DNA from: Przondovirus NAN33P2
DNA length: 40,708 bases
Strand: one strand, 5' to 3'
Sequence record: OZ035820.1
A model generated the notes under the pieces. It searched no databases. It worked only from the letters and a program-made list of their open reading frames with translations, and was not told where the DNA came from. Shown piece by piece: positions 1 to 40,708 of this stretch (positions within the stretch are counted from its first letter, which is position 1; every line of letters begins with the position of its first letter). Position numbers and translations under genes: made by a program.

Positions 1-26
1 ACTGGAAGAAAGCTAATAAGGAGTAA
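1..26 (+). CDS. gp17.5: 3' end of holin gene 17.5, continuing from 40531..40708 across the circular junction
   Basis: Reading frame from ATG 40531 continues through the window end into positions 1-23 (...DKII|DWKKANKE) with TAA at 24-26; C-terminus matches the recalled T7 gp17.5 ending DWKKANKE. Confidence 0.8.
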
Positions 27-29
27 CAT

Positions 30-287
30 ATGGACCTGATTAAGTTCCTCGAAATGTTAGACACTGAGATGGCTCAGCAGATGCTCATGGACCTGAAGAA
101 TCCAGAGAAGCGGACCCCTCAGCTGTACAACGCCATTGGTAAACTACTGGAGCGTCATAAGTTCCAAATCTCTAAGCTGACCCCTGACGTTAACATCTTG
201 GGCGGACTGGCTGAGGGTCTGGAGGCTTATAACTCCAAGGTGGGTGCTGATGGTCTGACAGATGACGATAAGTTCACCCTACAGTGA
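30..287 (+). CDS. gp18: Terminase small subunit (DNA maturation protein A)
   Basis: 85 aa; TAAGGAG RBS before ATG; motifs FLEMLDT, SPQLYNAI, LLERHKFQI and PDVNILGGLA match recalled T7 gp18. Confidence 0.85.
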   Translation: MDLIKFLEMLDTEMAQQMLMDLKNPEKRTPQLYNAIGKLLERHKFQISKLTPDVNILGGLAEGLEAYNSKVGADGLTDDDKFTLQ

Positions 288-290
288 TAT

Positions 291-325
291 ACTCAAGGTA
301 CTACTATATGTAGTGCCTTTATGGA
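291..325 (+). promoter_or_regulatory. RNase III-type processing hairpin (R18.5-like)
   Basis: ACTCAAGG...hairpin...CCTTTATGG element between gene 18 and 18.5; one of five copies of a conserved family; resembles recalled T7 R0.3 (ACTCAAGGG...CCCTTTATGA). Confidence 0.55.
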
Positions 326-2978: not shown

Positions 2979-3161
2979 GGTCTTCCTTACGCGCTAGGGA
3001 TTCCGTAGTGATGCTTATCAGCATACACCACTCCATCCCTCTACAGTCAATACTTAAAGTTAACCTTAGGTGATTCGCTGGTCTACCTACGGGTCTATGC
3101 AATGACCTGAGGACTACCTGAGGTTACCTTTAAGAATTTTACATAAAGTTCTGAGTGTACA

Positions 3162-3342
3162 TCTCACAGTTTAAACTTTTGGTTATCCCCCCGGTACCCT
3201 CTCAGTCCACCCAAAGTAACCATGGGGCCACCCTAAACCTTCGGTTTAACCTTAGGTCGGTACCTTGGGAATCCTGAGGTGATACTATATGTTGTGGTGA
3301 GGGTGACTCAATGACGCTATATGTTGATGCCTCTGTGTCCCT
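3162..3342 (+). repeat. Terminal repeat region of the linear virion DNA (one copy in this circular assembly); boundaries approximate
   Basis: Begins with TCTCACAGT, the recalled first bases of the T7 genome, and ends at CCTCTGTGTCCCT, resembling the recalled end of the T7 terminal repeat (CTCTGTGTCCCT); flanked on both sides by short-repeat arrays. Confidence 0.45.
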
Positions 3343-3576
3343 ATCTGTTGGGCCTCTTTAAGTATACACCTGAGGTTAGACCTGAGGTCATCCATTGACG
3401 CTATGCCTTAGGTTAACCGTTTGACTAACGTTTAGCAGTGACTGTTAGTAGGTCACATAGAGTGATCAATCAAGTATCTCGTTTAGCAGTCCCTGAGACA
3501 CTGAGAGCGGGACAATATGGGTATCAGTGAGTCATTACTATAAGGGCTATCGGTGGTCAGTGTCAACACCGTAATC

Positions 3577-3599
3577 AATTAGGTATCACTATAAGGAGA
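3577..3599 (+). promoter_or_regulatory. Phage RNAP promoter variant (phiOL-like)
   Basis: AATTAGGTATCACTATAAGGAGA; carries the same TATAAGGAGA variant as recalled T7 phiOL and lies just upstream of the host-type early promoters. Confidence 0.55.
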
Positions 3600-3679
3600 C
3601 ACTCTAAGTATTACTACGAGACCATTACCAATAAGAACACTATCACTATAGGTCTAACTAAAAGTTTTAACTTTAAGTG

Positions 3680-3715
3680 TTGACATTCAGATTCCGTTAT
3701 GAGACATTAGCAACC
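3680..3715 (+). promoter_or_regulatory. Candidate host sigma70 early promoter (A1-like)
   Basis: Perfect -35 TTGACA at 3680-3685; -10 is poor (GACATT or ACATTA at 17-18 bp spacing); position about 86 bp after phiOL parallels T7 A1. Confidence 0.3.
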
Positions 3716-3812
3716 GTTGAGAGACACAACGTCACCAACGACCAGACAATACCACGAGTTATCTGGTTAGACTGAGGGTCTCAAGTAGCTATCAACCGGC
3801 ATACGAAAATGG

Positions 3813-3841
3813 TTGACTCAACGATGAACAAGTAGTAAGAT
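3813..3841 (+). promoter_or_regulatory. Host sigma70 early promoter (A2/A3-like)
   Basis: TTGACT (3813-3818), 17-bp spacer, TAAGAT (3836-3841); resembles recalled T7 A2 (-10 TAAGAT). Confidence 0.55.
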
Positions 3842-4009
3842 GCACCACAGATTCACCGCTCTTTAACAATATGGATTAGTCAAAGCTGATATGTACACCA
3901 TGACATTAGTGTTTAACTAGTGGTTACATTCAGGTCTCTGGCAAGGTACGTCCTGTCACCCTGAGAGTAGCCACCTTGATAACCACTAATCAACTGAAGG
4001 ATATACATT

Positions 4010-4477
4010 ATGATTTTCACGAAAGAACCAGCCAACAAAGTATTCGTATTCGTTACCGCATACCGTGGCCATGAGTCGCAGGAAGTAAACGAGAAGATGC
4101 TCAAGGGTCTCATTAAGACCATTCGCACCTATCCGGGTGCATACGGCAACATTCGTGACGAGAACGTGCAAGGCTGCTTTAAGGAAGATGGTATGCCTGC
4201 GGCAACACAAGAACGCACGCTCAAGGTCGAATGTACTGAGAAGCAAGCCGCAGAGTTGACATGGCTGGCCTGTAAGACCTACTCGCAGGATGCCGTGCTG
4301 GTGGTGAACTCACAGACCCATACAGCAGCTCTGTGGTCTATTGAGGATGTAGGCGAGTATCCACAGGTCTACCCACGCTTGAAAGAGGTGTCCTTAGGTG
4401 GCACGCTGCAACAAGTGGATGCACCAAAGGGAGAATGCTATTCAGTCATCAACGGGCAGTACTGGGAGGTGGTGTAA
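4010..4477 (+). CDS. gp0.3: S-adenosylmethionine lyase / SAMase (anti-restriction), T3 gene 0.3 type
   Basis: 155 aa; first early gene; N-terminus MIFTKEPAN and internal QTHTA match recalled T3 SAMase; RBS GAAGGA. Confidence 0.7.
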   Translation: MIFTKEPANKVFVFVTAYRGHESQEVNEKMLKGLIKTIRTYPGAYGNIRDENVQGCFKEDGMPAATQERTLKVECTEKQAAELTWLACKTYSQDAVLVVNSQTHTAALWSIEDVGEYPQVYPRLKEVSLGGTLQQVDAPKGECYSVINGQYWEVV

Positions 4478-4677
4478 TGGGTAAGCTGCTAGCGATATCC
4501 AAAATAACAGGGCAATGCACTGTAACACTACGGGAGTACTCACACGGTGCAATGGGGAGTACCTACACTGTGCGGCACGGTAAGCAGGTAAAACACTGGG
4601 TCAACGAGAGACTAGCTCAGGAGGATTATCAATCATGCGTCATACATCAATCAACTTGCGCTGGGTGGAATGACTGA
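4477..4677 (+). CDS. Hypothetical small early protein
   Basis: 66-aa ORF from ATG overlapping the 0.3 stop (TAATGG) after GGAGG; part of a chain of overlapping small early ORFs; no recognised homology. Confidence 0.35.
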   Translation: MGKLLAISKITGQCTVTLREYSHGAMGSTYTVRHGKQVKHWVNERLAQEDYQSCVIHQSTCAGWND

Positions 4678-4823
4678 TGAAACACTACGGACTCACTCAG
4701 GCAGACATAAGGCACTATCGCTGGTTGTTATCCTTAGGTAGACCGCACGATTACTTAATGATGCACCTCGCGCAAACTTATCGCACACATAAGGTAATGT
4801 ATGATAACCCTGTTCGTAATTAG
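4677..4823 (+). CDS. Hypothetical small early protein
   Basis: 48-aa ORF starting at ATGA overlap with the preceding ORF; basic protein; no recognised homology. Confidence 0.25.
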   Translation: MKHYGLTQADIRHYRWLLSLGRPHDYLMMHLAQTYRTHKVMYDNPVRN

Positions 4824-4998
4824 TGTGTACGCCCTGATTGTCCTGTACTTTGTGCAGGACTTTCTCAAGGGTCTCAAGGTACACAAGGCATCGTTTAGTT
4901 ACCTGAAGTGGGGCTTCTTGCCTCGCTTCACTGTACGTTTACATAATGGCCGCTTTAAGGCTAACAAAGTGGGGATATTCTATGTTGCAACGCATTAA
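4801..4998 (+). CDS. Hypothetical small membrane protein
   Basis: 65 aa with strongly hydrophobic N-terminus (ITLFVISVYALIVLYFV); position analogous to T7 0.4-0.6 small early genes. Confidence 0.35.
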   Translation: MITLFVISVYALIVLYFVQDFLKGLKVHKASFSYLKWGFLPRFTVRLHNGRFKANKVGIFYVATH

Positions 4999-5161
4999 CA
5001 ACCGAGTCTACCGGGACAAGCATGGGATCGTCATAGTGCACATCATAAGGTACGATTGCTACGTCTATGCAGACACCTGCGAATCATTGCCGTACTACCC
5101 AAGCGCTAACACTCGCAAGACGTGGGAGCGCATTGGCACTAACCTGAAGTTTACCGATTGA
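4982..5161 (+). CDS. Hypothetical small early protein
   Basis: 59-aa ORF from internal ATG of the six-frame ORF 4946..5161, overlapping the end of the preceding ORF; start uncertain. Confidence 0.25.
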   Translation: MLQRINNRVYRDKHGIVIVHIIRYDCYVYADTCESLPYYPSANTRKTWERIGTNLKFTD

Positions 5162-12628: not shown

Positions 12629-13324
12629 ATGGCATTCGCTAAGAAGAAAATTTACACCACCAAGATTGGTACCTGTGAGCCGTACGCTTACTTCAACAAG
12701 CCGGACTATGGCGGTGAGGGTTTTGAGAACCCACGCGGTACCTACAAGGGTTCCGTAACGTTCAAGAACGAAGACTGTCAGGAGCTGGTAGATCTCATCG
12801 TTAAGACCCATGAGGAAAACTACGCGGCCCGTCTGGAAGCGCACGAAGCGAACCAGCCGAAGGTTCAGAAGGGTAAGAAACCTCTGAAGCCGTACGAAGG
12901 CGACATGCCGTTCTTCGACAACGGTGATGGTACAACCACGTTCAACTTCAAGTGCTACGGTTCGTACGAGGACAAGAAGACTGGCGAGACCAAGAAGATT
13001 GTTCTGGGCGTAGTAGACGCGAAGGGCAAGCGCATCCAAGACGTTCCGATTATCGGCGGCGGGTCCAAAGTGAAGATTCGCTTCTCGCTGGTACCGTACG
13101 GCTGGTCTGCGGTAGCTGGCGCTTCCGTTAAGTTGCAGCTGGAAGGCGTGATGCTGGTCGAACTGGCTACCTTTGGTGGTGGCGAAGACGACTGGGCTGA
13201 CGAAGCCGTAGAAGGCGGTTACGAAGCTGACGAACCTCGCAGCCGTAAACCTCAGGAAGACCCGGAAGACTGGTCTGGTGAGGAAGCTGACGAGGGCGAA
13301 GCCGAAGAAGACGATGACTTCTAA
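12629..13324 (+). CDS. gp2.5: Single-stranded DNA-binding protein
   Basis: 231 aa; acidic C-terminal tail ending ...EEDDDF as in T7 gp2.5; TTAAGGAG RBS. Confidence 0.9.
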   Translation: MAFAKKKIYTTKIGTCEPYAYFNKPDYGGEGFENPRGTYKGSVTFKNEDCQELVDLIVKTHEENYAARLEAHEANQPKVQKGKKPLKPYEGDMPFFDNGDGTTTFNFKCYGSYEDKKTGETKKIVLGVVDAKGKRIQDVPIIGGGSKVKIRFSLVPYGWSAVAGASVKLQLEGVMLVELATFGGGEDDWADEAVEGGYEADEPRSRKPQEDPEDWSGEEADEGEAEEDDDF

Positions 13325-13773
13325 TGGCGGGCTATGGGGCCAAAGGGATTCGGAAGGTGGGTGCCTTCCGGTCTGGCCTTGAGGACAAGGTGTCCAAGCA
13401 GTTAGAATCAAAGGGCGTCACGTTCGACTACGAATTGTGGCGCATCCCTTACGTTATTCCTGCGAGTGACCACCTTTACACTCCAGACTTCTTGCTACCT
13501 AACGGCATCTTCGTGGAGACTAAGGGTCTCTGGGAAGCCGAGGACCGCAAGAAGCACCTACTGATTCGTGAGCAATACCCGGAGTTAGACATCCGGTTAG
13601 TGTTCTCATCGAGTCGCACTAAGATTTACAAAGGGTCACCAACCAGTTACGCTGAGTGGTGCGAGAAGCATAACATCTTGTTTGCCGACAAATTGATTCC
13701 CGTAGACTGGCTGAAGGAGCCGAAGCGTGATGTACCGTTCGGCAAGTTCAAGCAGAAGAAAGGAGCAAAGTAA
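13324..13773 (+). CDS. gp3: Endonuclease I (Holliday junction resolvase)
   Basis: 149 aa; near-identical to recalled T7 gp3 (MAGYGAKGIRKVGAFRSGLEDKVSKQLESKG..., PDFLLPNGIFVETKGLWE). Confidence 0.95.
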   Translation: MAGYGAKGIRKVGAFRSGLEDKVSKQLESKGVTFDYELWRIPYVIPASDHLYTPDFLLPNGIFVETKGLWEAEDRKKHLLIREQYPELDIRLVFSSSRTKIYKGSPTSYAEWCEKHNILFADKLIPVDWLKEPKRDVPFGKFKQKKGAK

Positions 13774-13775
13774 GT

Positions 13776-14231
13776 ATGGCCAAGGTTCAATTCACTAAGC
13801 GACAGGAGACCTCTCAGATTTTCGTTCACTGTTCAGCCACCAAGGCAACCATGGACGTAGGTGTTCGTGAGATTCGTCAGTGGCACAAAGAGCAGGGCTG
13901 GCTGGATGTGGGGTATCACTTCATTATCCGTCGTGACGGTACCGTAGAGGCAGGCCGTGACCAAGACGCTGTAGGTTCTCATGTCAAGGGATACAACTCG
14001 ACTTCTGTCGGTGTGTGTCTGGTAGGCGGTATTGACGCCAAGGGCAACCCTGAGGCAAACTTCACGCCAGCCCAGATGCAGTCTCTTCGCTCACTGCTGG
14101 TAGAACTGAAGGCGCAATACGCTGGGGCAGTGTTGATGGCACACCACGATGTAGCACCGAAGGCTTGCCCTAGCTTCGACCTGAAGCGCTGGTGGGAGAA
14201 GAACGAATTGGTCACTTCTGACCGTGGGTAA
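13776..14231 (+). CDS. gp3.5: Lysozyme / N-acetylmuramoyl-L-alanine amidase (also RNAP inhibitor in T7)
   Basis: 151 aa, same length as T7 gp3.5; amidase_2-like motifs (HCSAT, GYHF, AHHD). Confidence 0.9.
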   Translation: MAKVQFTKRQETSQIFVHCSATKATMDVGVREIRQWHKEQGWLDVGYHFIIRRDGTVEAGRDQDAVGSHVKGYNSTSVGVCLVGGIDAKGNPEANFTPAQMQSLRSLLVELKAQYAGAVLMAHHDVAPKACPSFDLKRWWEKNELVTSDRG

Positions 14232-14232
14232 A

Positions 14233-14255
14233 CATTAAGTAGCACTACAGGGAGA
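14233..14255 (+). promoter_or_regulatory. Phage RNAP promoter variant (phi3.8-like)
   Basis: CATTAAGTAGCACTACAGGGAGA after gene 3.5. Confidence 0.55.
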
Positions 14256-14294
14256 CAATCGCGTTTCCCTGTTGTCGCTTTAGGAGATTACTTT

Positions 14295-16297
<2,003 letters not shown>

Positions 16298-16317: not shown

Positions 16318-16527
16318 ATGTTTAAACTTATCGAAGCATTAGGCCGTCTGGTCATCGCGCTGTACGTACGTGAAGCCAAGGCACTGGACAAAGCGTCCAA
16401 GGTGGAAGCAGAAGCAGCCGCTAAGCTGGCTAAGGCCGCCGACAAGGCACGTCAGGCATCTCTGGATGCAACCGCAGAGGCAGCGAAAGTTGCACTTAAA
16501 GCTCAGAAACTTAAGGAGTTCTTCTAA
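16318..16527 (+). CDS. gp4.3: Gene 4.3-like protein
   Basis: 69 aa from ATG after AAGGAG; MFKLIEALGRLV... and ending ...KLKEFF resemble recalled T7 gp4.3 (MFKLIKKLGQLL...; ...SKFFE). Confidence 0.6.
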   Translation: MFKLIEALGRLVIALYVREAKALDKASKVEAEAAAKLAKAADKARQASLDATAEAAKVALKAQKLKEFF

Positions 16528-16838
16528 TGACTACCAAAGCTAAATTCCCCGGCAACACCATCCAGCTGTCCGACACTGTAGACCAGTGGGGCCGCAAGGT
16601 TCACATCAACGTTCGCAACGACAAGGTGACTCTGGTCTACCGCTGGAAGGCTAAGAGCGATAACCGTGCGCACACTCAGCGTGTGACCCTCGACGACACA
16701 CAGGCAGCTCGCTTACTGGCATCCGTAGCCGTAGCCGCTACTGTAGCTGTTGGTGAGGACAAGGTCCGTGAGGCTATCCTGAGTAAAGAGGTAGGCTCAA
16801 CGGCAACTCGACTGGCCGAAGCGTCAGAAGCCAAGTGA
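16527..16838 (+). CDS. Gene 4.5-like hypothetical protein
   Basis: 103-aa ORF; ATG overlaps the 4.3 stop (TAATG); assigned by position. Confidence 0.5.
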   Translation: MTTKAKFPGNTIQLSDTVDQWGRKVHINVRNDKVTLVYRWKAKSDNRAHTQRVTLDDTQAARLLASVAVAATVAVGEDKVREAILSKEVGSTATRLAEASEAK

Positions 16839-16841
16839 TAA

Positions 16842-16877
16842 ACTCAAGGTCATTACTATATGTAGTGGCCTTTATGA
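16842..16877 (+). promoter_or_regulatory. RNase III-type processing hairpin (R4.7-like)
   Basis: ACTCAAGGTCATTACTATATGTAGTGGCCTTTATGA; nearly identical to the copy at 291-325. Confidence 0.55.
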
Positions 16878-16907
16878 TTATCATACACAACATATTGAGG
16901 AGAGGTC

Positions 16908-17360
16908 ATGAAAGTTTGTTCGAAATGTGGCAATGGTAAGCCGCTCTCTGAGTTCGGTAAAGCATCCCGCATGAAGGACGGCTTGAGGACTTGGTGTAAA
17001 GAGTGTGTGAGGAGGGACAACAACGATCGGTACCACAAACACGATGCGGAGCGAAGGGCTGAGCACAGGTGGCGGTCACGTAAGTCGCAGATAAAGAAGT
17101 ACGGTATCACAGTGGAGCAGTACGAGGCCATGTGGGAATCGCAGGGTGGGAGGTGTAAGATATGTGGAGACGCTGTAGCGGTGCACTCAGAAAACCGTCA
17201 CGAAGTCGCGTGTATTGACCATTGTCACGAGACCTTAAAGGTTAGAGGTCTTTTGTGCTGGCACTGTAACATCGGGCTTGGTAAGTTCTTTGATAACACA
17301 GAGCGCCTTAAGGCTGCTATAGAATATCTGGAGGTACACAGTGTTAGTGATGGACATTGA
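16908..17360 (+). CDS. HNH endonuclease, Endonuclease VII-like
   Basis: 150 aa; N-terminal CxxC...CxxC zinc knuckle (CSKCGNGKP...CKEC) and C-terminal HNH core (CIDHCHETLKVRGLLCWHCNIGLG); GAGGAG RBS; 3' end overlaps the gene 5 start. Confidence 0.7.
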   Translation: MKVCSKCGNGKPLSEFGKASRMKDGLRTWCKECVRRDNNDRYHKHDAERRAEHRWRSRKSQIKKYGITVEQYEAMWESQGGRCKICGDAVAVHSENRHEVACIDHCHETLKVRGLLCWHCNIGLGKFFDNTERLKAAIEYLEVHSVSDGH

Positions 17361-19455
17361 AGCAAACAACCTTTTAGAGAACGCTACGCAGTTTCACTGT
17401 GGCGTGCTTTATGATTACGCAACAGGTGACTACACATCTTATAGACCTTGGGACTTCTCTGCGTACTTGGACGCCATGGAGGATGAAGTCGCCCGTGGAG
17501 GCCTTATCGTGGGGCACAACATCACCAAGTATGATGCCCCAGTGTTAACCAAGCTGGCCAAGCTCCAGTTAAACCGAGAGTTCCACCTGCCGCGTGAGAA
17601 CGTAGTGGACACGTTGGTGCTCAGTCGTTTGCTGTTTGCGAACATTAAGGACACCGACATGACCCTGCTGCGCTCCGGGAAGTTACCCGGTAAGCGCTTC
17701 GGGTCTCACGCTCTGGAGGCGTGGGGTTACCGCTTAGGCGAGATGAAGGGTGAGTACAAGGACGACTTCAAGAAGCTCCTTGAGGAACAGGGAGAGGATT
17801 ACGTCGATGGTGCTGAGTGGATTAGCTTCAACGAGCCGATGATGGCGTATAACGTTCAGGACGTTGTGGTGACCAAGGCTCTCCTTGAGAAGCTGCTGAG
17901 CGACAAGCACTACTTCCCAGCTGGTATAGACTTCACGGATGTCGGCGAGACAACCTTCTGGTCAGAGTCCTGCGAGGCCGTCTGGTTGGAACACCGAGCC
18001 GCTTGGTTACTCGCTAAGCAGGAGCGTAACGGATTCCCGTTCAACACCAAGGCCATCGAGGAACTCTACGTTGAACTCGCTGGTCGTCGTTCTGAACTCC
18101 TTCAGACACTCACCGACACTTTCGGAACTTGGTATCAGCCTAAGGGTGGCACTGAGTTATTCCTGCACCCGCGAACTGGGAAGCCTCTGGGGAAATACCC
18201 GCGAGTGAAGTACCCGAAGCAGGGTGCCATCTACAAGAAACCCAAGAACAAAGCTCAGCGTGAGGGTCGTGAACCATGCGAGCTGGACACTCGGGATTAC
18301 GTAGAGGGCGCTCCATATACACCAGTAGAGCACGTTGTGTTCAACCCTAGTAGCCGAGACCACATTGCGCTCAAGCTGAAGGAAGCCGGATGGGTACCGA
18401 CAGAGTTCACCGATAAAGGTGCACCTAAGGTAGACGACGAGGTCCTTGAGCATGTGCGTGTGGAAGACCCTGAGAAGCAGCGCTGCATTGACCTCATCAA
18501 AGAGTACCTGATGATACAGAAGCGTATCGGTCAGGCGGCTGAGGGCGACAAAGCGTGGCTACGTTACGTTCAAGAGGATGGTAAAATCCATGGTTCAGTC
18601 AATCCTAATGGTGCCGTTACGGGCCGAGCGACTCACAGCTTCCCGAACCTCGGACAAGTGCCGGGTGTTCGAAGTCCTTACGGCGAGCCTTGCAGGGCTG
18701 CTTTTGGTGCTGAGCATCACCTTGACGGCCTCACTGGTTTACCTTGGGTACAAGCTGGTATCGACGCCTCCGGTCTGGAACTGCGGTGTCTCGCACACTT
18801 CATGTCCAAGTACGACGGGGGAGCTTATGCAGACGTTATTCTTAACGGGGACATCCACACGGTAAACCAGCAGGCCGCTGAGTTGCCGACTCGTGACAAC
18901 GCGAAGACCTTTATCTACGGATTCCTTTACGGAGCAGGCGACGAGAAGATTGGACAAATCGTCGGAGCAGGTAAGGAACGCGGAAAGGAACTCAAGAAGA
19001 AATTCCTTGAGAACACCCCAGCAATCGCAGCGTTGCGTGAAGGAATCCAGCAGACCCTCGTCGAGTCATCCAGATGGGTCGCAGGAGAGCAGAAGGTCAA
19101 GTGGAAACGACGCTGGATTAAGGGACTGGATGGAAGAAAGGTACACGTTCGGTCACCACATGCCGCGCTCAACACGTTGCTTCAATCAGCGGGTGCGCTC
19201 ATTTGTAAGCTGTGGATTGTCGAGACTGAAGAGTTGCTCCTCAAGGCTGGCTTGAAGCACGGCTGGGATGGTGACTTTGCGTACATGGCGTGGGTCCACG
19301 ATGAAATCCAAGTGGCCTGCCGGACACCTGAGATTGCACAGCAGGTGATTGACATTGCGCAACAAGCTATGCGCAACGTTGGGGAACACTTCAAGTTCCG
19401 TTGCCGTCTGGATACAGAAGGTAAGATGGGTCCGAACTGGGCCGTATGTCACTAA
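17341..19455 (+). CDS. gp5: DNA polymerase (family A) with 3'-5' exonuclease
   Basis: 704 aa, same length as T7 gp5 and collinear with it (DIEANNLLE, FHCGV.YDY, thioredoxin-binding region, C-terminal KMGPNWA.CH); start is GTG 17341, 6 nt after GGAGG. Confidence 0.95.
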   Translation: MLVMDIEANNLLENATQFHCGVLYDYATGDYTSYRPWDFSAYLDAMEDEVARGGLIVGHNITKYDAPVLTKLAKLQLNREFHLPRENVVDTLVLSRLLFANIKDTDMTLLRSGKLPGKRFGSHALEAWGYRLGEMKGEYKDDFKKLLEEQGEDYVDGAEWISFNEPMMAYNVQDVVVTKALLEKLLSDKHYFPAGIDFTDVGETTFWSESCEAVWLEHRAAWLLAKQERNGFPFNTKAIEELYVELAGRRSELLQTLTDTFGTWYQPKGGTELFLHPRTGKPLGKYPRVKYPKQGAIYKKPKNKAQREGREPCELDTRDYVEGAPYTPVEHVVFNPSSRDHIALKLKEAGWVPTEFTDKGAPKVDDEVLEHVRVEDPEKQRCIDLIKEYLMIQKRIGQAAEGDKAWLRYVQEDGKIHGSVNPNGAVTGRATHSFPNLGQVPGVRSPYGEPCRAAFGAEHHLDGLTGLPWVQAGIDASGLELRCLAHFMSKYDGGAYADVILNGDIHTVNQQAAELPTRDNAKTFIYGFLYGAGDEKIGQIVGAGKERGKELKKKFLENTPAIAALREGIQQTLVESSRWVAGEQKVKWKRRWIKGLDGRKVHVRSPHAALNTLLQSAGALICKLWIVETEELLLKAGLKHGWDGDFAYMAWVHDEIQVACRTPEIAQQVIDIAQQAMRNVGEHFKFRCRLDTEGKMGPNWAVCH

Positions 19456-21802: not shown

Positions 21803-23410
21803 ATGGCAGAAGTTAAACTTGAAGGCTTCGCAGAGGAGGGAGCCAAGGCGGTATACGACCGTCTGAAGAACGACCGACAGCCTTACGAGACACGAGCAGA
21901 GTCCTGTGCGCAGTACACGATTCCCTCACTGTTCCCTAAGGACTCCGATAACGCATCAACCGATTACACGACTCCGTGGCAATCCGTAGGTGCTCGCGGG
22001 CTGAACAACCTAGCGTCCAAGCTGATGCTGGCCCTGTTCCCGATGCAATCATGGATGAAGTTGACCATTAGCGAATACGAAGCGAAGAACCTTCTGGGTG
22101 ACGCCGAGGGTCTCGCTAAGGTCGATGAGGGCCTCTCAATGGTAGAGCGCATCATCATGAACTACATCGAGTCCAACAGTTATCGAGTGACTCTCTTTGA
22201 GTGCTTGAAGCAACTGTGTGTGGCTGGCAACGCGCTGCTTTACTTACCGGAGCCTGAGGGTTATACCCCGATGAAGCTCTATCGGCTGAACTCGTATGTG
22301 GTCCAGCGAGACGCTTTCGGTAACGTGCTCCAGATTGTCACACTCGACAAGATTGCGTTCAATGCGCTCCCTGAAGACGTTCGTGGTCAGGTGGAAGCGG
22401 CTCAAGGTGAGCAGAAGGAAGACGCTGAGATTGACGTCTACACCCACGTGTACCTGAACGAAGCCGGGGATGGCTACTCGAAGTACGAAGAGGTTGCCGA
22501 AGAGGTAGTTCCGGGCAGTGAGGCCGAGTACCCGCTCGAAGAGTGTCCGTACATTCCGGTCCGCATGGTCCGCATCGACGGTGAATCCTATGGTCGTTCC
22601 TACGTGGAAGAGTATCTGGGTGACCTCAAGTCCCTAGAGAACCTCCAAGAGTCCATCGTGAAGATGGCCATGATTACCGCTAAGGTTATCGGTCTGGTAG
22701 ACCCGGCAGGTATCACTCAGGTTCGCCGACTCACGGCAGCACAGTCTGGTGCGTTCGTACCGGGCCGTAAGCAGGACATTGAGTTCCTCCAACTGGAGAA
22801 GTCCGGTGACTTTACCGTAGCGAAGAACGTAAGCGACACCATTGAGGCGCGCCTCTCGTATGCCTTTATGCTCAACAGTGCGGTACAACGTACAGGCGAG
22901 CGAGTCACAGCCGAAGAGATTCGGTACGTGGCGTCAGAGCTGGAAGATACCCTTGGCGGTGTCTACTCGATTCTCTCGCAGGAACTCCAGCTGCCTCTGG
23001 TAAGAGTGCTCTTGAAGCAACTACAAGCCACGCAGCAAATCCCGGAGTTACCTAAAGAGGCCGTCGAGCCAACTATCAGCACTGGCCTTGAGGCTATCGG
23101 ACGTGGGCAGGACCTTGACAAGCTGGAGCGATGCATTGCCGCATGGTCAGCTCTTAAGGCCCTCGAAGGCGATGATGACCTCAACTTGGCTAACCTCAAG
23201 TTACGCATCGCTAACGCTATCGGACTCGACACTGCTGGTATGCTTCTCACTCAGGAGCAGAAGAATGCCCTTATGGCACAGCAAGGCGCTCAGATTGCTA
23301 CACAGCAAGGGGCCGCAGCGTTGGGTCAGGGGGTGGCCGCACAGGCTACTGCAAGTCCTGAAGCGATGGCCGCTGCGGCTGATTCAGTCGGTATGCAACC
23401 GGGCATGTAA
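21803..23410 (+). CDS. gp8: Portal (head-to-tail connector) protein
   Basis: 535 aa (T7 gp8 is 536 aa); position before scaffold and capsid genes. Confidence 0.9.
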   Translation: MAEVKLEGFAEEGAKAVYDRLKNDRQPYETRAESCAQYTIPSLFPKDSDNASTDYTTPWQSVGARGLNNLASKLMLALFPMQSWMKLTISEYEAKNLLGDAEGLAKVDEGLSMVERIIMNYIESNSYRVTLFECLKQLCVAGNALLYLPEPEGYTPMKLYRLNSYVVQRDAFGNVLQIVTLDKIAFNALPEDVRGQVEAAQGEQKEDAEIDVYTHVYLNEAGDGYSKYEEVAEEVVPGSEAEYPLEECPYIPVRMVRIDGESYGRSYVEEYLGDLKSLENLQESIVKMAMITAKVIGLVDPAGITQVRRLTAAQSGAFVPGRKQDIEFLQLEKSGDFTVAKNVSDTIEARLSYAFMLNSAVQRTGERVTAEEIRYVASELEDTLGGVYSILSQELQLPLVRVLLKQLQATQQIPELPKEAVEPTISTGLEAIGRGQDLDKLERCIAAWSALKALEGDDDLNLANLKLRIANAIGLDTAGMLLTQEQKNALMAQQGAQIATQQGAAALGQGVAAQATASPEAMAAAADSVGMQPGM

Positions 23411-40530: not shown

Positions 40531-40708
40531 ATGTTGTCCCTAGACTTCAACAACGAAGTTATCAAGGCGGCTCCCATTGCGGGGGTCGCTGGGGCCGATG
40601 GCGTAGCGAGGCTCTTCTGGGGCCTCTCACTCAACGAGTGGTTCTACGTCGCGGCAATCGCCTACACAGTGGTTCAGATTGGTGCCAAGGTAGTCGATAA
40701 AATCATTG
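40531..40708 (+). CDS. gp17.5: Holin (class II), 5' portion; continues at 1..26
   Basis: MLSLDFNNE.IKAAPI...RLF.GLSLNEWFYVAAIAYTVVQIGAKVVDK matches recalled T7 gp17.5; TAAGGAGG RBS; joined product is 67 aa. Confidence 0.85.
   Translation, partial: MLSLDFNNEVIKAAPIAGVAGADGVARLFWGLSLNEWFYVAAIAYTVVQIGAKVVDKII

What the first reader, a model, noticed from the sequence alone, without database searches (positions are those of the whole stretch)
16908..17360. Endo VII-type HNH endonuclease gene overlapping the DNA polymerase start
The ORF combines a zinc knuckle with a canonical HNH core (DHCH...N...CWHCN) and ends 20 nt inside gene 5, whose GTG start at 17341 has its own RBS within the HNH coding sequence. 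T7 has an unrelated gene 4.7 here, and its HNH-like genes (3.8, 5.3, 7.7) lie elsewhere and are absent from this genome. It could be a homing endonuclease or a packaging-associated nuclease.
Basis: partly seen in the sequence, partly recalled or inferred. Interest (0 to 1): 0.5.

Follow-up and report, generated by a model that had tools for sequence, protein, structure and literature searches.

The report
Mobile homing endonuclease beside phage polymerase

Summary
The ORF at 16908-17360 (+) is real. It encodes a 150-aa protein with an N-terminal four-cysteine zinc ribbon and a C-terminal Endo VII-type HNH domain (Pfam PF02945, E=2.9e-22), with every catalytic and zinc residue intact. The window is a circularly permuted Przondovirus genome. 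An identical protein is already annotated "endonuclease VII" in Klebsiella phage RAD13.

The gene is optional. About 2% of related Klebsiella phage records carry it; the rest have a T7 gene 4.7 homologue at that locus.

The gene travels with the first ~196 nt of the polymerase gene. This 630-nt block is identical to RAD13, while the surrounding genome is closest to a phage that lacks the gene.

In three genera, carriers have polymerase GHN(I/F)TK(Y/F)D where non-carriers have FHNGHKYD (Exo II motif). This is the most conserved stretch of the gene's 5' end, and the divergent tract ends just after it.

Best reading: a free-standing homing endonuclease of the F-CphI/DHHRN family that probably cuts the polymerase gene of phages lacking it. 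The resolvase and packaging-nuclease readings are rejected. It is a new member of a known kind, of modest interest. Cleavage and the target site are inferred, not shown.

The parts
16846..16872 (+). Conserved RNA hairpin in the gp4.5-endonuclease intergenic region. It probably corresponds to the T7 RNase III site R4.7. It marks the invariant left flank of the cassette.
   Evidence: An 11-bp stem, AAGGUCAUUAC/GUAGUGGCCUU, is predicted; the 75-nt region folds at -18.9 kcal/mol, z=-2.5. The sequence CTCAAGGTC...GTGGCCTT(C/T)ATGA is shared with T7 13866-13893, just upstream of T7 promoter phi4.7. Positions 16833-16899 are invariant in four phages, with or without the endonuclease gene. The RNase III assignment rests on my recollection of the T7 map and was not tested.
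16897..16905 (+). Shine-Dalgarno sequence of the endonuclease gene. The left breakpoint of the cassette is at about 16899/16900.
   Evidence: GAGGAGAGG lies upstream of the ATG at 16908. Alignment with K11 and Whistle diverges immediately after ...CATATTGAG.
16908..17360 (+). Free-standing homing endonuclease gene (150 aa), Endo VII-motif / DHHRN family.
   Evidence: ORF. PF02945 E=2.9e-22. PHROG 2633 E=3.8e-44. 100% identical to RAD13 protein XNL97987.1. AF2 mean pLDDT 93.8. dN/dS 0.03-0.04.
16917..17006 (+). N-terminal four-cysteine zinc ribbon (C4, C7, C30, C33), the presumed DNA-binding module.
   Evidence: C30 and C33 are invariant and C4 and C7 at least 90% conserved across 51 homologues. 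AF2 predicts strands 16-18 and 26-30 followed by a helix. There are weak hits to Stc1 and to Lar-like zinc modules.
17091..17333 (+). Endo VII / beta-beta-alpha-Me nuclease domain (residues 62-142). Zinc ligands are C83, C86, C117 and C120; active-site residues are D104, H105, H107, R113 and N121.
   Evidence: Pfam match covers residues 62-142. Residue-by-residue alignment to T4 Endo VII and Hpy99I. Invariant columns in the 51-sequence alignment. Foldseek top hits are Hpy99I 3fc3 and T4 Endo VII 1en7.
17330..17335 (+). Shine-Dalgarno sequence (GGAGGT) of gene 5, embedded in the endonuclease codons for L-E-V.
   Evidence: It lies 5 nt upstream of the GTG at 17341. The geometry matches K11's GGAGAC-CACT-ATG.
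17341..19455 (+). Gene 5, T7-type DNA polymerase (704 aa, GTG start).
   Evidence: tblastn with T7 gp5 residues 1-704 aligns to 17341-19452 at 84.9% identity. ORF.
17341..17536 (+). Tract of gene 5 linked to the endonuclease gene (co-converted): the first ~196 nt.
   Evidence: There are no mismatches to RAD13 between 16905 and 17534. Against NAN33P6, the nearest genome overall, there are 57 mismatches in 17341-17536 and then baseline divergence. Among more than 500 phage records, this 220-nt haplotype is above 80% identical only in carriers of the endonuclease gene. The same boundary at about nt 200 is seen in 8 carrier genomes of 3 genera.
17506..17531 (+). Predicted resistant version of the endonuclease target, lying in the Exo II motif of the polymerase. 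The window reads ATCGTGGGGCACAACATCACCAAGTA; genomes without the endonuclease read ATCGTATTCCACAACGGTCACAAGTA.
   Evidence: This is the most conserved 24-26-nt stretch in the first 330 nt of gene 5 among 69 unique sequences lacking the endonuclease gene (mean column conservation 0.958). Every carrier allele has clustered changes here, giving F58G, G61I/F and H62T. That this is the target is an inference, not a demonstration.

Best explanation
The ORF is a free-standing homing endonuclease gene (HEG). I call genomes that carry it HEG+ and genomes that lack it HEG-.

The protein has an N-terminal four-cysteine zinc ribbon, which probably reads the DNA sequence. It is joined by two helices to a C-terminal Endo VII-type beta-beta-alpha-metal nuclease domain. 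This is the architecture of the F-CphI/DHHRN homing endonuclease family. The gene is transcribed within the class II (DNA metabolism) operon from the phage promoter at 14235 and has no promoter of its own.

Proposed mechanism: during mixed infection with a related T7-like phage that lacks the gene, the enzyme cuts or nicks that phage's DNA polymerase gene. The cut falls at or near nt 166-191 of gene 5, the stretch encoding the Exo II proofreading motif FHNGHKYD. The break is resected and repaired using the HEG+ genome as template. Repair copies the resistant polymerase allele (GHN(I/F)TKYD), the first ~196 nt of gene 5, and the HEG. The recipient's gene 4.7 is lost because the donor has no equivalent of it.

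What is shown:
- domain identity and intact catalytic residues;
- sporadic distribution;
- a 630-nt cassette identical between mosaic genomes;
- strict linkage of the HEG to the variant Exo II motif across three genera, with a common tract boundary;
- strong purifying selection on the HEG;
- degenerate copies in other genomes.

What is inferred:
- that the protein cleaves DNA;
- that the target is the Exo II-coding stretch;
- that transfer goes through double-strand-break repair.
For: Family: PF02945 E=2.9e-22 and PHROG 2633. D104, H105, H107, R113, N121 and both CxxC pairs align to the catalytic and zinc residues of T4 Endo VII and are invariant or at least 90% conserved in 51 homologues. AF2 pLDDT is 93.8, and Foldseek finds Hpy99I and T4 Endo VII.

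Published context: PMC6083498 defines the DHHRN family. It places T7-like podovirus proteins that have a C-terminal Endo VII motif, in phages that also encode endonuclease I, in the "endonuclease clade".

Optional distribution: 9 of about 405-418 Klebsiella phage records (7 phages) carry the gene. The others have a gp4.7 homologue at the locus.

Mobility: the window is closest overall to HEG- phage NAN33P6 (95.8%). Yet positions 16905-17534 are identical to RAD13, which differs from the window by roughly 2-10 or more mismatches per 100 nt elsewhere. Two HEG allele groups in Przondovirus differ by dS 1.3-1.7, while the surrounding genomes differ by about 5%. dN/dS is 0.03-0.04.

Target: all 14 HEG+ or HEG-remnant genomes examined (Przondovirus, Teseptimavirus and relatives, Berlinvirus) have GHN(I/F)TK(Y/F)D. 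In contrast, 74 of 74 FHNGHKYD loci in an unselected sample of 80 IMG/VR loci lack the HEG, as do K11, Whistle, NAN33P6 and T7. My hypergeometric calculation from the counts gives p of about 5e-5, ignoring shared ancestry. The variant cluster sits on the most conserved stretch of the gene's 5' end. The divergent tract ends just after it in independent lineages. In RN5i1 only nt 0-50 and nt 150-200 are divergent.

Life cycle: three IMG/VR contigs from the DNAP sample show later stages. L053 carries an HEG with a 46-aa internal deletion. L116 retains only a 36-codon remnant. L124 has the resistant allele without an HEG.

Precedent: free-standing HEGs cut hundreds of bp from their own gene and co-convert the flanks (PMC2988022).
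Against: There are no biochemical or genetic data for this protein or any close relative, so cleavage, strand specificity and target are all unproven.

The link between the HEG and the Exo II variant could partly reflect common descent of one cassette (hitch-hiking) rather than selection for immunity. The real cut site could lie elsewhere in the first ~200 nt of gene 5.

L124 carries the variant motif without an HEG, and L131 has an intermediate motif (FHNGTKYD). The variant is therefore not exclusive to HEG carriers.

More distant homologues (47-53% identity) in the same position sit next to polymerases with other motifs (FHNGIRYD, LHNGVNYD). The inferred specificity applies only to the close clade.

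How gene 4.7 was first replaced is not explained.
Confidence: 0.8

Rival explanations
1. The gene is a genuine Endo VII-type Holliday junction resolvase, used to debranch DNA before packaging, as its database name "endonuclease VII" suggests.
For: It matches PF02945. The catalytic residues shared with T4 Endo VII are conserved. Foldseek hits 1en7.
Against: The phage already encodes T7-type endonuclease I (gene 3, 13324-13770, 81% identical to T7 gp3). The similarity covers only T4 residues 10-86, and nothing corresponds to the C-terminal dimerisation and junction-binding domain of T4. The motif is C-terminal with an added N-terminal zinc ribbon, which PMC6083498 assigns to the endonuclease clade, not the resolvase clade. 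The gene is absent from about 98% of close relatives.
Confidence: 0.04
2. The gene is a packaging-associated HNH nuclease that assists terminase, as HK97 gp74 does.
For: It has an HNH-type fold, and such helper proteins are known in some phages (from my own knowledge). No result obtained here supports this reading.
Against: The gene is not next to the terminase genes: gp18 is at 36-284 and gp19 at 833-2581, about 14 kb away with more than ten genes between. It lies in the DNA metabolism operon. Nearly all Przondoviruses lack it and still package DNA. It does not match PF01844. T7-like phages package concatemers with direct terminal repeats using gp18 and gp19 alone (established T7 biology).
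Confidence: 0.02
3. The gene is an active site-specific nuclease, but its target is not the Exo II stretch of gene 5. The target could be the gene 4.7 or intergenic region, another part of the gene 5 5' end, or host or competitor DNA acting as an exclusion or anti-defence weapon. On this reading the linked polymerase variant is a hitch-hiker.
For: The whole first ~196 nt of gene 5 differs between carriers and non-carriers, not only the motif. L124 has the variant motif without the HEG. Free-standing HEG targets can be far from the gene (PMC2988022).
Against: In RN5i1, gene 4.7 is retained and the HEG is simply inserted between genes 4.7 and 5. Differences in the Exo I region do not separate carriers from non-carriers across genera: T7, which lacks the HEG, shares GAC...GAA with carriers. 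The Exo II changes do separate them. The tract boundary coincides just past the motif in independent lineages, and RN5i1 shows an isolated divergent patch at nt 150-200.
Confidence: 0.12
4. The gene is a decaying, inactive relic with no current function.
For: Truncated or deleted versions exist in other genomes (L053, L116, P0008, P0009).
Against: In the window the ORF is full length with every catalytic and zinc residue intact. dN/dS is 0.03-0.04 across alleles with saturated synonymous divergence. The 630-nt cassette identical to RAD13 points to a recent transfer.
Confidence: 0.02

Closest known systems
F-CphI (cyanophage S-PM2 ORF177) and the DHHRN homing endonuclease family (Fang et al. 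2018, PMC6083498)
   Same: Both have a C-terminal Endo VII catalytic motif (CxxC...DHxH...R...CxxCN) and an unrelated N-terminal region. Both are free-standing genes next to the conserved gene they are thought to target. Both occur in phages that have a separate resolvase. The paper's "endonuclease clade" explicitly includes proteins from T7-like podoviruses.
   Different: F-CphI targets psbA and is protected by a group I intron ("collaborative homing"). Here the neighbour is the DNA polymerase gene, and protection would come from point substitutions in the Exo II motif. I did not compare the two sequences directly, and activity is shown only for F-CphI.
T3 gene 5.3 and the intron-encoded I-TslI of T7-like phages (Bonocora & Shub 2009, Curr Biol 19:223). 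This paper is not held in the library. I cite it from memory and from the reference lists seen.
   Same: It is a free-standing HEG next to gene 5 of a T7-like phage. It cuts the polymerase gene of relatives that lack it and spreads by intronless homing.
   Different: That gene lies downstream of gene 5, belongs to a different HNH lineage, and cuts in the polymerase domain at an intron insertion site. The gene here lies upstream and appears to target the exonuclease Exo II region.
T4 endonuclease VII (gp49; PDB 1en7, 1e7d, 2qnc)
   Same: It shares the zinc-bound beta-beta-alpha-metal catalytic core. T4 residues D40, H41, H43, R54 and N62 correspond to D104, H105, H107, R113 and N121 here.
   Different: T4 Endo VII has the motif at its N-terminus, followed by a C-terminal helical domain that forms a domain-swapped dimer on four-way junctions. 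That domain is absent here, an N-terminal zinc ribbon is present, and the phage has its own endonuclease I. The database name "endonuclease VII" therefore describes the fold, not the function.
Hpy99I restriction endonuclease (PDB 3fc3)
   Same: It is the best sequence match (E=1.5e-4) and the best structural match (E=1.9e-4). It shares the DHxH...CxxCNxGLGxF signature. It is a sequence-specific cutter of duplex DNA.
   Different: Hpy99I is a bacterial restriction enzyme paired with a methylase. No methylase is present here.
T4 free-standing HEGs: SegG, SegF, MobE, and SegH/Hef (review PMC2988022)
   Same: They are optional genes between conserved genes and cut at a distance from their own gene. 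They co-convert flanking markers (marker exclusion). SegH and Hef replace other genes (mobC, mobE) at the same locus, as this gene replaces 4.7.
   Different: They belong to different nuclease families (GIY-YIG or classical HNH) and a different phage group.

Membership tests
Endo VII-motif (DHHRN / F-CphI-type) homing endonucleases; Pfam PF02945 | The CxxC ... D-H-x-H ... R ... CxxC-N catalytic and zinc motif is intact. | tested here: met
   C83, C86, D104, H105, H107, R113, C117, C120 and N121 are all present. PF02945 scores 78.8 bits against a cut-off of 23.6. The residues align to T4 Endo VII and are invariant or at least 90% conserved in 51 homologues.
Endo VII-motif (DHHRN / F-CphI-type) homing endonucleases; Pfam PF02945 | The motif lies in the C-terminal part of the protein, with a separate N-terminal region (endonuclease-clade architecture, not resolvase-clade). 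| tested here: met
   The motif spans residues 62-142 of 150, and the N-terminal 60 residues form a zinc ribbon plus helices. The criterion comes from PMC6083498.
Endo VII-motif (DHHRN / F-CphI-type) homing endonucleases; Pfam PF02945 | The host phage has a separate junction resolvase. | tested here: met
   A T7 gp3 (endonuclease I) homologue lies at 13324-13770, 81% identical.
Endo VII-motif (DHHRN / F-CphI-type) homing endonucleases; Pfam PF02945 | The fold is beta-beta-alpha-metal. | tested here: met
   The AF2 model has pLDDT 93.8, with strands 102-105 and 112-116 followed by helix 118-126. Foldseek finds Hpy99I and T4 Endo VII.
Homing endonuclease genes in general (free-standing, intronless homing) | Distribution among close relatives is sporadic and optional. 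| tested here: met
   The gene is present in 9 of about 405-418 Klebsiella phage records. In the sample of 80 IMG/VR loci, 3 carry it or a remnant.
Homing endonuclease genes in general (free-standing, intronless homing) | Flanking sequence is co-converted with the gene, and the gene sits at a recombination boundary. | tested here: met
   A 630-nt block is identical to RAD13 within a genome otherwise closest to NAN33P6. A divergent ~200-nt tract of gene 5 is seen in 8 carrier genomes.
Homing endonuclease genes in general (free-standing, intronless homing) | The carrier genome has a variant (resistant) version of a conserved site that is intact in genomes lacking the gene. | tested here: inconclusive
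   A strictly linked variant of the Exo II stretch exists. Whether that stretch is the recognition site was not, and could not be, tested.
Homing endonuclease genes in general (free-standing, intronless homing) | The enzyme cleaves the allele lacking the gene site-specifically, and inheritance in crosses is super-Mendelian. | not testable with these tools
   This needs protein expression, cleavage assays and phage crosses.
T4 Endo VII-type Holliday junction resolvases | An N-terminal catalytic motif is followed by a C-terminal helical dimerisation and junction-binding domain (homology along the whole length to gp49). | tested here: not met
   Only T4 residues 10-86 align, and Foldseek aligns about 90 columns of 157. 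Only about 25 residues follow the motif.
T4 Endo VII-type Holliday junction resolvases | It is conserved as the phage's resolvase across relatives. | tested here: not met
   It is absent from about 98% of relatives, and endonuclease I is present.
Packaging-associated HNH nucleases (HK97 gp74-like) | The gene is adjacent to the terminase or portal genes. | tested here: not met
   The terminase genes are at 36-284 and 833-2581 and the portal gene at 21803-23407. The nuclease gene at 16908 lies between genes 4.5 and 5.
Packaging-associated HNH nucleases (HK97 gp74-like) | It is a classical HNH domain (PF01844) conserved among relatives that share the packaging system. | tested here: not met
   Only PF02945 is matched, and most relatives lack the gene.

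The most novel reading that the evidence does not exclude
The endonuclease gene, the first ~196 nt of gene 5 and a rewritten Exo II proofreading motif (F58G, G61I/F, H62T) form one mobile cassette. This cassette would cross genus boundaries within the Studiervirinae (Przondovirus, Teseptimavirus, Berlinvirus). It would spread by cutting the most conserved stretch of the polymerase exonuclease domain in competitors. If so, a selfish element dictates the sequence of a catalytic motif of an essential replication enzyme and may alter proofreading. It would also cause marker exclusion between Klebsiella phages that are mixed in therapeutic cocktails.
Probability: 0.45. Interest if true: 0.45.

Novelty: new member of a known kind. 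Interest (0 to 1): 0.3.

Why it matters
The gene is an example of a well-understood class, free-standing phage homing endonucleases. An identical protein is already in GenBank, labelled by its fold as "endonuclease VII", so the discovery value is limited. The analysis adds three things:

- **Annotation.** The label "endonuclease VII / recombination endonuclease" is functionally misleading in T7-like phages, which use endonuclease I as their resolvase.
- **A testable target.** The predicted site is 26 bp in the Exo II-coding stretch of gene 5, with a 9-nt resistant variant. This would give the DHHRN family a second characterised target.
- **A practical point.** Przondoviruses are widely used in Klebsiella phage therapy cocktails. 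A carrier phage could destroy or convert the polymerase gene of co-infecting cocktail partners.

Tried and rejected
- **IMG/VR search with the endonuclease protein.** It returned only two close relatives (IL33 itself and L016, the same contig as L053), plus distant homologues in unrelated contexts. It was not useful for testing the association. I replaced it with a search seeded on conserved polymerase peptides.
- **A promoter for the gene.** Searches with the K11 consensus and with the window's own consensus TTAGGTAGCACTATAGGGA found 13 sites. None lies between 14253 and 20980. The sigma-70 scan found only chance-level hits on the opposite strand. There is therefore no equivalent of T7 promoter phi4.7.
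- **Paralogues in the window.** tblastn with the protein itself, with T7 gp2.8, gp3.8, gp5.3 and gp7.7, and with the RAD13 HNH from the gene 3.8 position found none.
- **Literature.** Bonocora & Shub 2009 could not be retrieved. A search for I-TslI and T3 gene 5.3 found nothing. Searches on Przondovirus or KP32 with homing endonuclease found only passing mentions of variable endonuclease genes, and nothing on this gene or its target.
- **Extending the Exo II association to more distant homologues.** PSV6, T7-Ah and vB_EcoP-R1 carry 47-53% identical homologues upstream of gene 5. Their polymerases have different motifs, so the association is claimed only for the close clade.
- **Rejected readings.** Resolvase, packaging nuclease and dead relic; see the rival explanations.
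Full report
**1. What is there**

The window is a complete, circularly permuted genome of a T7-like Klebsiella phage of the genus Przondovirus. T7 proteins map in T7 order, from gp18 at 36-284 through gp17.5 at 40531-40707. The closest database genome is Przondovirus NAN33P6, at 95.8% identity over 98% of a 24-kb query.

It runs from the ATG at 16908 to the TGA at 17358-17360 on the + strand and encodes 150 aa. The sequence GAGGAGAGG lies just upstream.

The ORF sits between the gp4.5 homologue (16527-16838) and gene 5. T7 gp5 aligns from residue 1 at the GTG at 17341 through residue 704, at 84.9% identity. Related phages have ATG at that same position. GGAGGT lies 5 nt upstream, inside the endonuclease ORF. 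The 20-nt overlap is therefore the best reading. An in-frame ATG at 17350, which several GenBank annotations use, would give an 11-nt overlap.

**2. What the protein is**

- Pfam gives PF02945 (Endonuclease_7) at E=2.9e-22 over residues 62-142.
- PHROGs gives "endonuclease VII" families, with phrog_2633 at E=3.8e-44.
- Among solved structures, the best sequence matches are the restriction enzyme Hpy99I (E=1.5e-4) and T4 endonuclease VII (E=7e-3).
- The residue-by-residue alignment pairs C83/C86/C117/C120 with the T4 zinc ligands C23/C26/C58/C61. It pairs D104/H105/H107/R113/N121 with T4 D40/H41/H43/R54/N62.
- In an alignment of 51 homologues from a 5.8-billion-protein search, these residues are invariant or at least 90% conserved. 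So are the four N-terminal cysteines C4/C7/C30/C33.
- An AlphaFold2 model is confident (mean pLDDT 93.8). It shows an N-terminal zinc ribbon, two long helices, and a beta-beta-alpha nuclease core.
- Foldseek against the PDB again finds Hpy99I and T4 Endo VII first.

**3. Why it is not a resolvase or a packaging nuclease**

The similarity to T4 Endo VII covers only its catalytic N-terminal half (residues 10-86). Nothing matches the C-terminal dimerisation domain. The phage has its own T7-type endonuclease I at 13324-13770, 81% identical to T7 gp3.

Fang et al. 2018 (PMC6083498) showed that proteins with a C-terminal Endo VII motif form an "endonuclease clade". This clade contains the proven homing endonuclease F-CphI, Hpy99I, and proteins of T7-like podoviruses that also encode endonuclease I. 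The authors named it the DHHRN family. The present protein meets every sequence criterion of that family.

The terminase genes lie about 14 kb away, and almost all relatives lack the gene. A packaging role is therefore excluded.

**4. Distribution**

I call genomes that carry this homing endonuclease gene HEG+ and genomes that lack it HEG-.

A 2.4-kb query around the locus matches 418 Klebsiella phage records. Only nine records, representing seven phages, carry the gene: RAD13, Rappa3, vB_VIPKPNMC04 (MC04 below), IL33, BIS33, 71Y and HZJ31. RAD13 encodes a 100% identical protein annotated "endonuclease VII".

The other records have an unrelated 128-134-aa ORF of similar size at the locus. It is 41-52% identical to T7 gp4.7. 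The window has no gp4.7 homologue and none of T7 gp2.8, gp3.8, gp5.3 or gp7.7.

The replacement is precise:
- The left junction falls in the Shine-Dalgarno region at about 16899/16900, just after an invariant intergenic hairpin.
- The right junction falls at the Shine-Dalgarno sequence of gene 5.

Orthologues that are 78-82% identical occupy the same position upstream of gene 5 in other genera:
- Teseptimavirus AV103 and KFSA9;
- Yersinia phage WX1;
- Berlinvirus RN5i1, where gene 4.7 is retained and the endonuclease is simply inserted between genes 4.7 and 5.

**5. Evidence of mobility**

A 100-nt sliding comparison gives a clear mosaic. The window is nearly identical to HEG- phage NAN33P6 on both sides. 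From 16905 to 17534 it has no mismatches to RAD13. Elsewhere RAD13 differs from the window by roughly 2-10 mismatches per 100 nt, with patches of 20-60.

Against NAN33P6, mismatches are dense from 17341 to 17536: 57 in 196 nt. They then fall to baseline. The endonuclease gene and the first ~196 nt of gene 5 therefore behave as one transferred block.

A search with nt 21-240 of gene 5 shows the same linkage. Among 514 matching records, only the nine HEG+ records exceed 80% identity. All the others are at or below 80%, in genomes that are otherwise about 94% identical.

The Przondovirus endonuclease alleles fall into two groups that differ at dS=1.3-1.7 but dN/dS=0.03-0.04. These are old, independently acquired alleles under strong purifying selection, not decaying relics.

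**6. Where it probably cuts**

Aligning the 5' end of gene 5 shows a shared signature. Every HEG+ genome, in all three genera, encodes LIV-G-HN-(I/F)T-K(Y/F)D. HEG- genomes, including T7, encode LIV-F-HN-GH-KYD.

This is the Exo II motif (N-x3-Y-D) of the 3'-5' exonuclease. That assignment comes from general knowledge of family A polymerases. Residues N60, K63 and D65 are invariant in alignment A2.

I tested the association on an unselected sample of 80 T7-like loci from IMG/VR. The loci were retrieved with the conserved peptides HALEAWG and YRLGEMK, which lie outside the region of interest. Results:
- 74 loci have FHNGHKYD, and none of them has the endonuclease gene upstream.
- 4 loci have the variant motif. 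L052 is IL33 with a full gene. L053 has a gene with an in-frame 46-aa internal deletion. L116 retains only the last 36 codons. L124 has no endonuclease gene and keeps gene 4.7.

From these counts I calculate a hypergeometric p of about 5e-5. This ignores shared ancestry.

Among 69 unique HEG- sequences, the most conserved 24-26-nt stretch in the first 330 nt of gene 5 is nt 166-191, ATCGTATTCCACAACGGTCACAAGTA. That is exactly where all HEG+ alleles carry clustered substitutions. In the window these fall at 17511-17514 and 17521-17525.

Each of eight HEG+ genomes was then compared with its nearest HEG- relative. In six of them the divergent tract covers the first ~200 nt of gene 5 and drops sharply to baseline at nt 200. 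In KFSA9 the drop comes at nt 250. RN5i1 is patchy: only nt 0-50 and nt 150-200 are divergent.

Differences in the Exo I region do not separate HEG+ from HEG- across genera, because T7 shares the HEG+ codons there. The Exo II changes do separate them.

This pattern is what a free-standing homing endonuclease would produce if it recognises a highly conserved, functionally constrained site some 150-190 bp from its own gene. It matches the published behaviour of free-standing endonucleases in T4 (PMC2988022).

**7. Expression context**

The phage promoter consensus TTAGGTAGCACTATAGGGA occurs at 13 sites. The nearest ones are at 14235 and 20980, and none lies in front of the endonuclease gene. T7, by contrast, has phi4.7 in front of gene 4.7.

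The invariant hairpin at 16846-16872 is homologous to the T7 hairpin just upstream of phi4.7. I recall that hairpin as RNase III site R4.7, but I did not test this.

The endonuclease is therefore made from the class II polycistronic transcript. Its last codons supply the Shine-Dalgarno sequence for the essential gene 5. The same is true in other genera, with a different sequence (AAGGAG).

**8. Limits**

Nothing here shows cleavage. The target assignment rests on comparative patterns. These could partly reflect descent of one cassette that has carried its flank across genera.

L124 (variant motif, no endonuclease gene) and L131 (FHNGTKYD) show that the variant is not exclusive to carriers. They could represent loss of the gene after fixation, or naturally resistant lineages.

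More distant homologues (47-53% identity) also sit upstream of gene 5 in Pifdecavirus, Kayfunavirus and Aeromonas phage T7-Ah. Their polymerases have other motifs, so their specificity may differ.

**9. Verdict**

The gene is a free-standing homing endonuclease of the Endo VII-motif (DHHRN) family.

It is a new, uncharacterised member of a known kind. Identical or near-identical genes are already deposited and annotated by fold. No paper found here describes its mobility or its target.

Interest is modest. The useful outputs are the correction of a misleading annotation and a sharp, testable prediction of the target and the immunity site in the polymerase Exo II motif.

Noticed in passing
window 1-300 and 40531-40708: The window is a circularly permuted assembly of a whole T7-like genome. 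It starts inside the gene 17.5/18 region (gp18 at 36-284) and ends in gene 17.5. The physical ends and terminal repeats must lie somewhere around 3000-5000, between gp19.5 and gp0.7.
   Followed up: partly
window 16697-16832 (3' end of the gp4.5 homologue): This is a second, independent mosaic patch. The window matches K11 here but differs from NAN33P6 at about 33 positions. RAD13 and Whistle share another haplotype. The patch is not linked to the endonuclease gene.
   Followed up: partly
window 18601-18900 and 17901-18000 (inside gene 5): Gene 5 contains further recombinant patches. At 18601-18900 there are about 20 mismatches per 100 nt to NAN33P6, RAD13 and MC04, but only 3-10 to Rappa3 and IL33. 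At 17901-18000 there are 27-36 mismatches to five HEG+ phages (HEG = the homing endonuclease gene under study), but only 4-6 to NAN33P6 and RAD13.
   Followed up: no
L053 1206-1517 (IMGVR_UViG_3300033068_000001): This Przondovirus-like contig has an endonuclease gene with an in-frame deletion of residues 37-82. The zinc ribbon is fused directly to the nuclease core. The contig still carries the variant Exo II motif. The gene product is probably a degenerating or minimised form (protein P0008).
   Followed up: partly
L116 1382-1489 (IMGVR_UViG_651703085_000001): Only the last 36 codons of the endonuclease gene survive, between gp4.5 and gene 5. Gene 4.7 is absent and the polymerase has GHNFTKFD. 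This looks like a late stage of the homing cycle.
   Followed up: partly
L124 1092-1700 (IMGVR_UViG_3300034358_000001): This locus has gene 4.7 and no endonuclease gene, yet its polymerase starts MLVMDIE and has GHNITKYD, like carriers of the gene. It is either a lineage that lost the gene or a naturally resistant source allele. This is unresolved.
   Followed up: partly
L008 1167-1532 (RAD13) and L013 1167-1532 (HZJ31), compared with window 14232-14520: RAD13 and HZJ31 carry a second optional HNH or homing endonuclease gene at the T7 gene 3.8 position, overlapping the primase start. The window lacks it.
   Followed up: partly
Many Przondovirus and Yersinia phage records (hits H59-H90): Paralogues 47-50% identical to this endonuclease, about 126 aa long, sit at a second hot-spot next to the internal virion protein or scaffold genes in dozens of Klebsiella phages. 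The window has none.
   Followed up: no
window 14235-14253 and 12 other sites: The phage RNA polymerase promoter consensus in this genome is TTAGGTAGCACTATAGGGA. It has 8 perfect copies and differs from the K11 consensus I recalled, GGGCACACTATAGGGA. Equivalents of T7 promoters phi4.3 and phi4.7 are absent.
   Followed up: partly
window 14332-16224: The mechanical ORF list gives a 630-aa TTG-initiated ORF for the primase/helicase gene. Homology to T7 gp4A starts only at about 14527, so the long N-terminal extension is an artefact of ORF calling.
   Followed up: no
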